A DNA stretch of 64,000 nt, taken from the NCBI GenBank assembly GCA_963695545.1, contig OY968796.1, forward strand, positions 1,248,001 through 1,312,000, read 5' to 3'. Both the position numbers and the translations under genes were made by a program. Shown in pieces: positions 12,582-62,890 of the stretch; position 1 is the stretch's first letter, and every line of letters begins with the position of its first letter. Source of the stretch: Terriglobia bacterium. Its GTDB lineage: Bacteria > Acidobacteriota > Terriglobia > Acidiferrales > UBA7541. The notes under the pieces were generated by a model. It was not told where the DNA came from. It did not search any database and saw only the letters and a list, made by a program, of their open reading frames with translations.

Positions 12582-12644
12582 TATTCGAATAACCCACACG
12601 TTATTATTGACACGTACGCCATAAATGTGCTATGCTTTTGCATG
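12582..12644 (+). promoter_or_regulatory. Palindrome + sigma70 promoter + leaderless ATG cassette, copy A
   Basis: TATTCGAATA 12582-12591; TTGACA 12607-12612; 18 nt; TGC-TATGCT 12631-12636; ATG 12642. Confidence 0.7.
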
Positions 12645-12837
12645 ACTCGCGAATACACAACCTCGCTTACTCCGCCGTTCGCTGGCGAGCCGCGGAACCT
12701 GCCCTCCGCGCGCCCCGCACGACCGGGCGTTCCGGCCGTAGGAGCACAATTTCCCTCCGCCCGTCCTGCTCGCCCTACCAAATATCATCGATACAATCCG
12801 ATCGAGTCGCATTCATCTCAACAAGAGTGCCTTCACA

Positions 12838-13003
12838 ACCCTTTTATTTTCAAGTCACTACAAAACAGTGTGTATGTTGTTGAAGATAAACACGCGCAAG
12901 TCTATTGTCTTCAATCTCTTGCGCACTCTTTGTCACTCTTTTCCTGGAAGTCTTTTAGTTACCATGTCTTACGCAAAACATACCCGGGGGGTGGGGGGGG
13001 TAT
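12838..13003 (+). repeat. AT-rich motif array ending in CTTACGCAAAACATACC-GGGG, copy A
   Basis: Shares TTCAATCTCTTGC, CACTCTTTTCCTG and CTTACGCAAAACATACC with reverse complement of 51211-51356. Confidence 0.8.
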
Positions 13004-13037
13004 CTCAGAGTCACCGAGGCGGACCGGTTGGAGCCGC

Positions 13038-14240
13038 TCACAAACCGTTCAACGAGTCTTTCAGCAGGCGCACGCCCTGCTCAAACGCGACCGTCGGCGC
13101 AATCAGGCTGAGCACCAGAAAACCGTCGGACGCGAAATTGTAGAAGGTGCCGGGATGAACCAGAACCGAAGACCGTTCGAGCAGCGACACCGCGAGCGAT
13201 TCATCCAACGCAACGTGCGCCGAGCGCGTCGCTCTCGGCACGCGCAGCACGGCGTACCATCCGCCTTCACGTTCGAGGCGCGTCGCCGCGTCGCATCCCG
13301 CGAGCGCGGCGTCGAGGAACCCGAGATTCGCCGCGATGCGTTCCTGCAATTGCGATTGCATCGCGCCGCGCAGCGCCAAAAATTCCGGCGCGGCAAGTTG
13401 GATCGGCGTGCTCGGCGAAAGATATGTGTCCGCGATCACGTCGAGCCGTTCGACCGCCGTGCGCGCCGCCAGCTCCGGCCCGCTCGTCACGATCCACGCG
13501 AGCTTCATCTGCGGCAGCGCCGAAATTTTGGAAAGCCCGCTCAGCGTGAACGTCAGTGCGCTCGAAGCGAACGCGAAGGAAGCGCTGGCGTTGGGCGCGT
13601 CGCCATAATCGAGAAACACTTCATCCGCCACGATGGCCATTTCGCGCGCGGCGCAAATCTCGGCAAGTTCCGCGGCTTCGCGCGGCTTCACGAACGAGCC
13701 GGTGGGATTGTTCGGATGCACCACCACGACCGCTCGCGATCGCGGCGCAATCGCTGCGCGCAGACCAGCGAGATCCATTTGCCAGCCGTGGTCGTAGAAC
13801 AAGCGATACGGCACCAAGCGAACGTCCGCGAGGTCGGCCAGAAATTCGAGCAGCGGATACCTCGGCGCCGGCACCAGAATTTCGTCGCCCGCTTCGCACA
13901 GCAGCCGAAACACGTGCGTGTAAGCTTCGCTCGTTCCGGAAGTCAGCACGATCCGCTCGGGATCGACGTGCCCCGCGTTCTGCGCGAAGCCGCGCCGATC
14001 GCGGTAATACTCCGCGACGGCCGCACGCGCGGAAAGCAGTCCTTTGCTTTCGGGGTGGTATTCAAGCGCGCGCGGGTTGCGCAGCGCATCCAGAATTTCG
14101 CGCTCGGGATACGCGAAGCCGTACGTCGTCGGATTCGACGCCGTCAAATCGATCAGCGGCTTGCCGCTGCGTCGATGCGCATCAAGCGCGCGCGCCAAAA
14201 GATTCGGTTCAAGCGGCCAATTTGTGCGCTTCGCAAACAT
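13038..14240 (-). CDS. PLP-dependent aminotransferase class I/II
   Basis: HPNNPTG, DEVF, SGLSK...PQMKLAW motifs; ATG 14240. Confidence 0.9.
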   Translation of the reverse strand: MFAKRTNWPLEPNLLARALDAHRRSGKPLIDLTASNPTTYGFAYPEREILDALRNPRALEYHPESKGLLSARAAVAEYYRDRRGFAQNAGHVDPERIVLTSGTSEAYTHVFRLLCEAGDEILVPAPRYPLLEFLADLADVRLVPYRLFYDHGWQMDLAGLRAAIAPRSRAVVVVHPNNPTGSFVKPREAAELAEICAAREMAIVADEVFLDYGDAPNASASFAFASSALTFTLSGLSKISALPQMKLAWIVTSGPELAARTAVERLDVIADTYLSPSTPIQLAAPEFLALRGAMQSQLQERIAANLGFLDAALAGCDAATRLEREGGWYAVLRVPRATRSAHVALDESLAVSLLERSSVLVHPGTFYNFASDGFLVLSLIAPTVAFEQGVRLLKDSLNGL

Positions 14241-14357
14241 GGAATTCGCAGCGAAATTCGTCAAGGGAGTTATAGCACGCCGCGAACGGCGGTTTTCTTC
14301 GGGCCGTGCTTCTGCACGACGCTCAAGGCGCCGCAAAAGGAGATCTCTAAAGCAAAC

Positions 14358-15095
14358 TTATCGGGTGGGTTCGTCGGATTCCACGCGGCCGTCGCGAATG
14401 CGAATCACGCGGTGAGCGTGCAGAGCGATATCGCCTTCGTGCGTCACAAGAATCACGGTGTTGCCCTGCTCGTGCAGTTTCGCGAACACCGCCATAATCT
14501 CTTCGCCGGTTTGCGTGTCGAGATTTCCGGTCGGTTCGTCGGCCAGAATGATCGCCGGATTATTCACCAGCGCCCGTGCGATGGCCACGCGCTGGCGCTG
14601 CCCGCCGGAAAGTTCGCTTGGCTTGTGGCTCATGCGCGTGCCCAGGTCCACGGCTTCCAGTGCGCGCTTGGCGCGCTCGGTGCGCTCCGCCGCGGGCGTC
14701 CCGTTGTACACCAGCGGCAATTCGACGTTATGCAGCGCGGAAGCGCGCGGCAGCAAATTGAACATTTGAAAGACGAATCCGATTTCCTTGTTGCGGATGT
14801 AAGCCAACTCGTCTTCGTCGAGATCGCTCACCAAGCGCCCCCCGAGCCAGTATTTTCCCGACGTCGGTGTGTCGAGGCAGCCGATCAAATTCATCAGCGT
14901 GGATTTGCCCGAGCCCGAAGGACCCATGATCGCCACGTATTCGCCGCGCTTGATTTCGATATTCACGCCGCGCAGCGCGTAGACTTGCTCCGAGCCCATC
15001 TCGTAGACCTTCGTCAGATCTTCCGTGCGAATCGCCACGCGAAGATCGATCAGGTCCTGACGAAACGAATCCGATGCCGCGGTCTCGGCCGGCAT
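14358..15095 (-). CDS. ABC transporter ATP-binding protein (MacB/LolD-like)
   Basis: [35 protein letters not shown]. Confidence 0.95.
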
Positions 15096-61438: not shown

Positions 61439-61837
61439 CTACGCGAGTTCTTCCAAGGTGAACCGGTTATATTTTTCCGCGAACTTTAAACCTACAGGCT
61501 TTACGATAGCGATGGCGCGTGCGGCGTCTTCATCCTTCGGGGCATGGAGAACAAGAAATCCGCAGCCTTGTCTCGCAAGCACGAAATATTCATCGACCTT
61601 GGCGGCTTCCTGACCGATCTGCATAGGGCTCGCGGAATGCTCCTCGCTTTTAACCAGCTCCGCCATCACATCAGCGTTCTTGTAATGCGTAACGTCGTCC
61701 GCGGCGAATCCTCCGGCGATCAGCAATTGCCGCGCCCGCTCGGCGTCGGCATCGTTTGCGAAAGCCATCACCACGTGTCCGGTCGGGCTAAATACTCCAA
61801 ACGACTCTGGGAATCGCACCTTCGAGCCTTTTGTCAT
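61439..61837 (-). CDS. Hypothetical protein
   Basis: 132-aa ORF with GGAG RBS; FGVFSPTGHVVMAF. Confidence 0.7.
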   Translation of the reverse strand: MTKGSKVRFPESFGVFSPTGHVVMAFANDADAERARQLLIAGGFAADDVTHYKNADVMAELVKSEEHSASPMQIGQEAAKVDEYFVLARQGCGFLVLHAPKDEDAARAIAIVKPVGLKFAEKYNRFTLEELA

Positions 61838-62092
61838 TAATGACTCCAGTCGGAATTAAAATTGTCGCTCGCTTCACGTGGTACAAAAAAGATCCCGGTC
61901 AAGTTAATCGCTTGGGCCGAGAAACGCTCCTTCTCATAGGAAGGGGCGCGGCCATTTTGGCTCACTCCTCGGAAGCTCGCACGTTATTTTTTTGTGGCCG
62001 GCAGCATGCGCTCGGCGTGCCTTCGACTTCACGCTCGAACCCACGGCGCTAGAGTTCAGTGAACCTGGCGAATACAAGTCAGCCGGATTGAA

Positions 62093-62137
62093 TGGTAGGC
62101 CCGTGGGGACTCGAACCCCAGACCTCTACCGTGTCAA
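62093..62137 (-). mobile_element. att site: 45-bp 3' fragment of tRNA-Val(GAC)
   Basis: Reverse complement TTGACACGGTAGAGGTCTGGGGTTCGAGTCCCCACGGGCCTACCA = anticodon loop to CCA; 5' half absent. Confidence 0.85.
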
Positions 62138-62501
62138 AGGCCAACTAACCAATACTCTAAACAACTTACGCAACGACCGAGGCCGCCTAAATACCTGGAA
62201 ATACGCCTAAGACGAGGTTTCAACGGTACGGGGAGCGGTACGAGATTCTGACGCTCTGTTCTTGACGGAATCTGCATCATTATTTCCCACGTCCTCAGGA
62301 GGAACGCTTATCGAATTGGCGAATCACCGTCGCTATGTCTATAAAAGGATCTAGCGAGTTGGCATGCCTCTCAGTCCAGTCAACAACGCCGCCCATCGGA
62401 CTCACGCCGACACTGTTAACGGAACCTGTTTGCCATGCAAAGATCTTGCGGTTTTCACTATGGCGAATGTCGCGCGCTGAATCACCCGTAGCTTCTTTTG
62501 G

Positions 62502-62740
62502 TCATTTTTCAACTATCTCGATCGTGTTAGGCATCACTCCGGGGTCAATTCGAATCGCGATGATTCGCGACGACGAGATGACATACATGATCCAGTTCGA
62601 TGAACCGCCACCCACAGGAGTAACCACCATCGTCGTCCGGCCGTTTGAAGCCACAGCATAGGCCCCACTGAATTGCGCGCCGAAAACGATGCCATTATCT
62701 TCCTGTCCTTCCAAGCTGCCGGCGCCATTTGCCGCCCATA
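62502..62740 (-). pseudogene. C-terminal remnant of a secreted beta-rich protein, fused to cassette C
   Basis: NGAGSLEGQED..FSGAYAVASNGRTT..YVISSSRII..EK* is protein-like but has no native N-terminus. Confidence 0.5.
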
Positions 62741-62822
62741 CTTCTGGACATTCTGGGGAATCGTGATTCGGCGCGGCGTGGAGGGAGACGGAGGCGCGGG
62801 GCGAGATGCGTTGTTCGCAGCT

Positions 62823-62890
62823 CATGTTTTAGTATAGCATTGCGCTTACCAGACTGTTAATACGTAAGCGTATTTGCTGTATTCGAATAC
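62823..62890 (-). promoter_or_regulatory. Palindrome + sigma70 promoter + leaderless ATG cassette, copy C
   Basis: GTATTCGAATAC 62879-62890; TTAACA 62860-62855; 18 nt; TGC-TATACT 62836-62831; ATG 62825. Confidence 0.65.

What the first reader, a model, noticed from the sequence alone, without database searches (positions are those of the whole stretch)
12582..62890. Three dispersed copies of a palindrome-promoter-leaderless-ATG cassette: candidate undescribed element or regulon
Seen: the same architecture at 12582-12644 (+), 51531-51466 (-) and 62890-62823 (-). Perfect palindrome TATTCGAATA, then 15/19/19 nt, then -35 (TTGACA/TTGACC/TTAACA), then 18/17/18 nt, then TGC plus -10 (TATGCT/TATAAG/TATACT), then exactly 5 nt, then ATG. 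Spacer sequences differ, so motifs and geometry are conserved rather than the whole sequence. Each ATG opens a poorly conserved Pro/Ser-rich frame (MTREYTTSLTPP, MKTQQLLETPLPP, MSCEQRISPRAS), not a known gene. A and B run into a homologous AT-rich array, while C is truncated by a gene remnant. All three have REP-like hairpins upstream, and A and C share TCGGGCCGGG there. Inference: a transcription-factor-controlled family of ~300-400 nt RNAs or micropeptides, or a non-autonomous mobile element carrying its own regulated promoter. I do not recognise this palindrome as a described operator.
Basis: partly seen in the sequence, partly recalled or inferred. Interest (0 to 1): 0.8.

Follow-up and report, generated by a model that had tools for sequence, protein, structure and literature searches.

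The report
Genome-wide cassettes with terminase-mimic protein
The three cassettes belong to about 105 evenly spaced promoter-and-repeat elements in a soil acidobacterium, a few of which carry a small gene whose tail matches, genome by genome, the likely small DNA-packaging subunit of a host-kept phage-head gene cluster, so they likely mark where chromosomal DNA is loaded into virus-like particles.

Summary
Observation confirmed and far larger than reported. The genome (Ca. Acidiferrales-type acidobacterium) holds 49 exact palindromes (0.4-2.4 expected) and about 105 elements: TTCGAA box, consensus sigma70 promoter, leaderless frame, repeat array, G-run. The frame is open in 90 of 96 copies (5 and 13 in the other frames), and two different frames are used. 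Spacing averages 37-40 kb and is more even than chance. Four copies carry a zinc-finger/helical-hairpin gene. Three of these end in a tail otherwise found only in the positional small terminase of a conserved, integrase-free phage-head cluster. Across 10 genomes of 4 genera, the tail scores best against the same genome's terminase in 7 and within the top three in 9; half of the synonymous codons differ. Best reading (0.5): dispersed packaging-start sites with a sequence-specific terminase adaptor for a gene-transfer-agent-like particle. Against: gene and cluster do not co-occur reliably, many copies are tail-less, and neither binding nor particles are shown. The scan reported this family and idea earlier from another window of this genome (e1-8533424).

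The parts
12561..12579 (+). Element A: second TTCGAA box plus DnaA-box-like TTTCCACA upstream of the palindrome
   Evidence: Sequence. TTTCCACA/TATCCACA-type 8-mer lies next to 36 of 104 promoters, against 1% of control windows. The DnaA-box likeness is recalled.
12582..12644 (+). Element A: palindrome, -35, extended -10 and leaderless ATG
12642..13002 (+). Element A: open leader frame running through the type-1 array (12836-12991) and the terminal G-run; it stays open beyond, antisense to an aminotransferase gene
51466..51531 (-). Element B: palindrome, -35, extended -10 and leaderless ATG (an extra TTCGAA lies upstream near 51560)
51184..51468 (-). Element B: 94-codon leader frame through the type-1 array (51362-51210) and the G-run; convergent on a peptidyl-arginine deiminase gene
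62823..62889 (-). Element C: palindrome, -35 (TTAACA), extended -10 and leaderless ATG
62757..62825 (-). Element C: about 70 nt of leader, then the array is lost. A copy in G003 (L004) has a similar leader followed by a type-2 array.
   Evidence: compared by eye

Best explanation
The cassettes are copies of a roughly 105-member chromosomal element family that likely serves as dispersed DNA-packaging start sites for a host-kept, gene-transfer-agent-like phage-head cluster, using an element-encoded protein predicted to act as a sequence-specific small terminase. SHOWN: element anatomy, copy number, even 37-40 kb spacing and the open frame; the four gene-bearing copies; a syntenic, mostly single-copy head cluster under purifying selection; and protein-level, genome-matched identity of the C-terminal tail. 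INFERRED: (1) The cluster's short gene near terL is TerS (position only) and lacks a DNA-recognition domain, as GTA TerS proteins do. (2) The element protein's CCCH zinc finger binds the repeat array. (3) Its tail docks on TerL or joins the TerS ring. (4) Cutting starts at or near the G-run, and a headful of flanking chromosome is packed. (5) The strong promoter and a translated, sequence-indifferent leader carry RNA polymerase across a C-rich, Rho-prone leader into the array, coupling transcription to initiation; the T7 concatemer junction is the analogy. (6) TTCGAA boxes hold the promoter off until induction, through an unidentified factor.
For: Tail: the motif occurs 4 times in six frames of G000, in 3 element genes and the cluster gene. 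hhalign finds only these 16 columns shared. In 10 genomes with both partners, the own-genome TerS ranks first of 27 (ties included) in 7 and in the top three in 9; permutation score 606 vs 353, 0 of 20000 shuffles. 48 of 100 same-residue degenerate codons differ, so the match is kept at protein level. Homologues of the cluster gene lie just upstream of terL in G008, G015 and G020. Cluster: TerL and major head protein hits; Walker and nuclease residues invariant in 79 sequences; gene order shared across the cluster regions fetched from 14 relatives; marker gene in 117 of 251 family genomes, mostly once; TerL dN/dS 0.19-0.25; nearest tyrosine integrase about 57 kb away. Element gene dN/dS 0.24-0.46. 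Spacing CV 0.65 (104 promoters) or 0.56 (113 sites), against 0.98 +/- 0.09 for random intergenic picks, 0 of 5000. Leader open in 90 of 96 copies here and 24 of 27 in relatives. Literature (passages): GTA TerS lacks the N-terminal DNA-binding domain and binds TerL through its C-terminus (PMC6854486; PMC11841831). T7 polymerase pausing at the concatemer junction recruits terminase (PMC3276506).
Against: Co-occurrence is poor. Of 25 family genomes, 7 have both, 8 the gene only, 7 TerL only and 3 neither. G018 has 17 element-gene matches, several tailed, yet no cluster TerL, head protein, marker or phrog_2 match. Genera g9, g12 and g19 carry the cluster marker (34/60, 23/29, 10/14) but have no element gene at E<=1e-25. 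Many element genes have a different, helical tail, including 8 of 8 examined in G015 and 2 of 2 in G008. About 100 of 105 copies lack any gene. The TerS label rests on position only, with no Pfam or PHROG support, and in G000 the gene lies 9 kb downstream of terL. Element genes were not found beside cluster genes (0 of 80 loci) or in IMG/VR. Genomes are related and element copies were picked by score, so the permutation p is overstated. The capsid's headful size is unknown.
Confidence: 0.5

Rival explanations
1. Selfish or defensive interference, not redirection. The tailed protein is a terminase decoy that blocks or tunes TerS/TerL of the resident cluster or of incoming phages, like PLE Gpi or SaPI Ppi. 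The promoter-array unit is a non-autonomous mobile cassette spread by an unidentified recombinase, and the array is the protein's own operator or the recombination site.
For: The tail match fits an inhibitor as well as an adaptor. Tailed genes persist in genomes without the cluster. Sites differ between congeners: of 20 G003 loci, 11 are shared, 6 empty in G000 and 3 unresolved, and 3 shared sites hold a different array type (read by eye). A satellite TerL inhibitor is known (10.1101/2024.04.22.590561, abstract).
Against: It does not explain why about 100 gene-less copies keep consensus promoters and open frames or why they are evenly spaced. No terminal repeats or duplications were seen at empty sites. 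Close pairs show no orientation bias.
Confidence: 0.2
2. Host chromosome-organisation sites. Evenly spaced, strongly transcribed arrays bind a nucleoid protein (IHF/HU-like repeats, DnaA-like box) and form domain boundaries or titration sites. The terminase tail would be a side use by a few copies.
For: Even spacing. Motifs are conserved while spacers diverge. A DnaA-box-like 8-mer lies beside 36 of 104 promoters. TTCGAA is the most avoided 6-bp palindrome of 64 (observed/expected 0.30, next 0.57), and 200 of its 564 sites sit at these promoters. Over half of the G003 sites are shared.
Against: Array sequences are lineage-restricted (type-2 pattern in 3 of 41 genomes; promoter pattern in 10 of 41). 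There is no replichore strand bias (49 vs 55) and no clean 10.5-bp A-tract phase. It does not account for the genome-matched tail.
Confidence: 0.17
3. A transcription factor controls about 100 small basic proteins or RNAs, or the cassettes act as portable promoters for neighbouring host genes.
For: Near-consensus promoters and an open frame under selection. A slight excess of co-directional downstream genes, 69 of 96.
Against: Two frames through the same array (25 vs 36 copies) give unrelated peptides. Third codon positions in the array are as fixed as the others. There is no RNA covariation. 27 of 96 copies point into convergent genes, including A and B.
Confidence: 0.1

Closest known systems
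Gene transfer agents (RcGTA, DsGTA, CcGTA); PMC6854486 and PMC11841831 passages, PMC5786225 abstract
   Same: Host-kept head and terminase cluster without a nearby integrase, conserved across a family, with a short TerS lacking an obvious DNA-binding domain.
   Different: Known GTAs are described as needing no packaging initiation site, and DsGTA peaks lack motifs. Here there are about 105 motif-defined candidate sites and a separate protein with a DNA-binding-type domain and the TerS tail. No particle has been shown.
Phage satellites that redirect packaging: SaPI/PICI TerS with pac site and lateral (co)transduction (PMC12829572, passages); PLE Gpi, GpsA/B and pac mimicry (10.1101/2024.04.22.590561, abstract)
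   Same: A small element encodes a protein predicted to engage another element's terminase and supplies its own DNA site. Flanking chromosome would be moved.
   Different: The unit is 0.3-0.9 kb with no integrase, replication or att sites seen, occurs about 100 times per chromosome, is mostly gene-less, and is matched to a domesticated cluster, not to a helper phage.
T3/T7 transcription-coupled packaging initiation (PMC3276506, one passage)
   Same: A promoter upstream of a candidate packaging site.
   Different: Host sigma70 promoter with a translated leader, chromosomal and multi-copy. The analogy is untested.
MITEs and REP/BIME/REPIN dispersed repeats (recalled)
   Same: Many short intergenic copies with presence/absence differences between relatives.
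   Different: No terminal inverted repeats or target duplications were seen; promoter, open frame and even spacing are under selection; the associated gene has no transposase match.

Membership tests
Gene transfer agent (the head cluster, C1:~3386000-3419000) | Phage-derived terminase, portal and capsid genes on the host chromosome | tested here: met
   TerL phrog_2 E 1e-13 and major head phrog_14242 E 1e-6. The portal is assigned by position only.
Gene transfer agent (the head cluster, C1:~3386000-3419000) | Conserved across host lineage under purifying selection, with no integrase | tested here: met
   Marker in 117 of 251 genomes; shared gene order; TerL dN/dS 0.19-0.25; nearest PF00589 hit about 57 kb away. 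Only tyrosine integrases were searched. The left flank gene matched in 1 of the 16 relative regions fetched, most of which do not reach that far.
Gene transfer agent (the head cluster, C1:~3386000-3419000) | No replication genes | tested here: inconclusive
   A conserved 349-aa gene at the cluster start looks like a replisome organiser by eye but has no Pfam match.
Gene transfer agent (the head cluster, C1:~3386000-3419000) | Particles packaging host DNA, too small for their own genes | not testable with these tools
   No particle or virome data.
Small terminase subunit (element protein P0001) | Modular N-terminal DNA-binding domain, helical oligomerisation hairpin and C-terminal TerL segment | tested here: inconclusive
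   Invariant C17, C27 and C39 with near-invariant H42; helices 69-84 and 90-114 in a model of pLDDT 67; tail shared with the positional TerS. No TerS family or fold match.
Small terminase subunit (element protein P0001) | Encoded beside terL | tested here: not met
   No cluster gene within 3 kb in 80 of 80 loci; the four G000 copies lie far from the cluster.
Small terminase subunit (element protein P0001) | Binds TerL and the packaging site | not testable with these tools
   Needs bench tests.
PICI/SaPI-type satellite | Integrase, replication module and att sites in a 10-15 kb island | tested here: not met
   Elements are 0.3-0.9 kb with at most one small gene.
MITE / IS-derived non-autonomous element | Terminal inverted repeats and target-site duplication | tested here: inconclusive
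   None seen by eye at 8 empty sites, but flanks are only about 80% identical.
Structured ncRNA family | Covarying secondary structure or an Rfam match | tested here: not met
   Rfam finds only a tRNA in the window. One compensatory against 90 one-sided changes in the main inverted pair of 66 copies. Only that pair was tested.

The most novel reading that the evidence does not exclude
Acidiferrales run a programmed, genome-tiling transfer system. About 100 selected packaging-start cassettes, roughly one per headful, are read by a zinc-finger adaptor that plugs sequence specificity back into a domesticated terminase whose own small subunit has lost it. This gives defined, lateral-transduction-like mobilisation of the whole chromosome, and adaptor and terminase tails co-evolve in each lineage.
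Probability: 0.35. Interest if true: 0.93.

Novelty: categorically new. Interest (0 to 1): 0.8.

Why it matters
How GTAs choose where to start packaging is an open question: PMC11841831 (passages) describes them as needing no initiation site, and DsGTA peaks have no motif (PMC5786225, abstract). This family gives about 105 exact coordinates, a candidate adaptor and a short interaction tail, so the question can be tested by sequencing particles or by one two-hybrid assay. Even if the packaging reading fails, a 100-copy element family with selected promoters, sequence-indifferent open frames, even spacing and a terminase-matching protein was not found in the papers searched. Those searches were (Acidiferrales + repeat; gene transfer agent + Acidobacteria + terminase; Acidoferrum + gene transfer agent); the library lacks most subscription journals, and no supplements were read. 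The host lineage is an abundant soil group.

Tried and rejected
RNA evidence: no RNA holder was listed, which is no evidence either way.

Family and fold searches for the element protein: no Pfam, PHROG or NCBIfam family for P0001. Among 125 relatives there were only weak hits (zf-primase 11, zf-TRM13_CCCH 5, DUF5763 4, GvpO N-term 14). No PDB sequence match, no viral fold at E<=0.001, and no solved fold at Z>=8. Atlas structure look-alikes in DUF5681 and DUF5763 clusters fell under the naming bar.

Native phage copy: none in IMG/VR for the element gene or the TerS. The 45 promoter-pattern hits there had no array or cluster gene. No array or promoter hit in 471 kb of cluster loci.

TTCGAA as a restriction-modification site: the one methylase found in G000 by three families sits beside one element but has no close homologue in 5 congeners, so it cannot explain genus-wide low TTCGAA counts (136-203 per Mb in the genus, 180-569 in other genera of the family; not normalised). 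The binding factor is unidentified.

Other ideas rejected: DNA-level gene conversion as the source of the tail match (48 of 100 synonymous differences); intrinsic bending (no clean 10.5-bp A-tract periodicity); deletion between direct repeats as the cause of spacing (close pairs 7 same vs 12 opposite).
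Full report
OBSERVATION. The three cassettes are in the sequence as described, with C's palindrome at 62889-62880. 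In the window alone the count is unremarkable when one mismatch is allowed (3 found, 11 of 100 shuffles reach it). The genome (4.16 Mb, one contig) holds 49 exact palindromes against 0.45-2.4 expected and 76 relaxed cassettes against none in three shuffles. Profiles built from these copies found 104 promoters. 102 have an array behind them, and I picked 9 further array-only sites by eye. Relatives of the family's gene carry Ca. Acidiferrales or Acidoferrum names.

ANATOMY. Each element runs: one or more TTCGAA boxes; TTGACA, 17-18 nt, extended -10, 5 nt; ATG or GTG; a variable C-rich leader (C 39%, G 21%); one of two AT-rich arrays; and a terminal G-run. The frame from the start codon to the array end is open in 90 of 96 copies, against 5 and 13 in the other frames and 2-5 on the reverse strand. 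In G003 and G004 it is open in 24 of 27, against 0 and 0. Type-1 arrays are entered in two frames (25 and 36 copies) and the stop-containing frame once; type-2 arrays are entered in one frame in 16 of 16. The frame is therefore selected to stay open while the peptide is free. The main inverted pair in the array does not covary (1 compensatory vs 90 one-sided changes, 66 copies), which points to DNA sites. TTCGAA is the most avoided 6-bp palindrome in the genome, yet 200 of its 564 sites are at these promoters.

DISTRIBUTION. Mean spacing is 37-40 kb with CV 0.56-0.65, against 0.98 +/- 0.09 for random intergenic picks from my own gene calls (0 of 5000). The exact promoter pattern occurs in 10 of 41 related genomes, including all of the genus. 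Upstream of the element gene in named genomes, a consensus promoter is present in 50 of 70 loci (control 2 of 64), 38 of them with TTCGAA. Of 20 G003 loci, 11 have an element at the orthologous G000 site, 6 are empty and 3 are unresolved; 3 shared sites differ in array type. No target duplication was seen (read by eye).

THE GENE. Four G000 copies carry a roughly 140-aa gene behind the G-run. It has a CCCH-type finger, a helical hairpin in a moderate model and dN/dS 0.24-0.46. The family is large (2113 representatives at E<=0.001) and unnamed. It occurs in 72 of 251 family genomes at E<=1e-25 (one of those rows is the unpublished G265). In one search the same C-terminal tail appeared in one other ORF. 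An earlier scan note on this genome (e1-8533424) had already read that ORF as a terminase subunit and proposed packaging sites; I took that lead and tested it.

THE CLUSTER. The ORF lies in a cluster of about 33 kb with TerL and a major head protein. Gene order is shared in the regions fetched from 14 relatives, a marker gene occurs in 117 of 251 genomes, TerL is under purifying selection, and no tyrosine integrase lies nearby. Homologues of the ORF sit one small gene upstream of terL in G008, G015 and G020, so it is TerS by position; no family model confirms this.

TAIL TEST. I located 27 TerS tails and examined 50 element loci from 21 genomes, chosen as top-scoring copies. Ten genomes of four genera had both a TerS tail and a tailed element gene. 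The own TerS ranked first (ties included) in 7, second or third in 2 and sixth in 1; the permutation score was 606 vs 353, 0 of 20000. Each genus has its own version: PVIWDMPGPDR in G000, EYQxVSNVPRP in G020, PPRIIWDIPGPPY in G115 and QIIFDAPRPIR in G259. Half of the synonymous codons differ (48 of 100). Genomes left out: G008, G015, G061, G078, G096, G104, G190 and G203 had no tail in the copies examined. G072's matching tail is visible in the output but was missed by the extraction window, G107's was not shown, G123's is partial, and G225 had no TerS located. Relatedness inflates the p-value.

AGAINST. Gene and cluster do not co-occur reliably (7 both, 8 gene only, 7 TerL only, 3 neither of 25). 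G018 has tailed genes without a detectable cluster. Three large genera have the cluster without the gene. About 100 copies lack the gene. No phage carries the unit in the collection searched. Expression, binding and particles are untested.

MECHANISM. GTA small terminases lack the DNA-binding domain and bind TerL through their C-terminus (PMC6854486 and PMC11841831, passages). Satellites redirect or block packaging with their own factors (PMC12829572, passages; 10.1101/2024.04.22.590561, abstract). I infer that the element protein supplies a DNA-reading domain plus the docking tail, that the arrays are its sites, and that packaging starts near the G-run. The promoter and open leader would bring RNA polymerase to the site, by analogy with T7 (PMC3276506, one passage). 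Probability 0.5. Rivals: terminase decoy on a mobile cassette (0.2), chromosome-organisation sites (0.17), regulon (0.1).

NOVELTY. Three literature searches found no description of this family or of an acidobacterial GTA (PMC5900883 passages treat such genes as prophages). The library is incomplete and no supplements were read. The unit fails the satellite test, is not a terL-linked TerS and has no transposon ends, though it would work like a SaPI TerS-pac pair multiplied across the chromosome. The scan has noted the family before in this genome (e1-8533424) and, untested by me, something similar elsewhere (e1-8242130, e1-2466941). That note's 'DNA-bending' wording was not supported by my periodicity check. 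Interest 0.8.

Noticed in passing
G000 whole genome: TTCGAA is the most depleted 6-bp palindrome of 64 (564 vs 1861 expected); 200 sites sit at element promoters, and about 30 copies have a second box roughly 15 nt after the start codon. The factor is unknown.
   Followed up: partly
L012 and L014 (C1:~3386000-3419000): A family-wide conserved phage-head cluster, GTA-like, with two TerS sequence classes. In the genomes examined, genera with element genes have one class and genera without have the other. An IS3-like element (by eye) interrupts it between the scaffold region and the capsid gene in G000.
   Followed up: yes
C1:247680 and C1:343586: Two type-2 arrays are cut at the same repeat position, with a gene behind; the one at 343586 looks IS1595-like by eye. 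The array may be an insertion target.
   Followed up: no
L132:528-2613 (C1:1770769-1772854): A restriction-modification-like gene pair (N6/N4 methylase plus unassigned 281-aa gene) directly upstream of one element, not shared by 5 congeners.
   Followed up: partly
window 62100-62165 (-): A tRNA-Val-like 3' fragment preceded by an AT-rich motif, by eye an attachment-site remnant next to truncated element C. ARAGORN calls only tRNA-Leu at 48884-48970.
   Followed up: no
window 11702-12337 (-): A DUF2442 gene with a small upstream gene, toxin-antitoxin-like by recall, just before element A. Small two-gene modules also flank elements in G003.
   Followed up: no
L092, L097, L099 vs G000: Orthologous sites in congeners hold an element of the other array type in the same orientation, as if cassettes replace each other in place.
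   Followed up: partly
L021, L038, L068-L073 (G015), L022, L039 (G008): A second class of element gene with a helical, acidic C-terminus and no terminase-type tail; its partner is unknown.
   Followed up: partly
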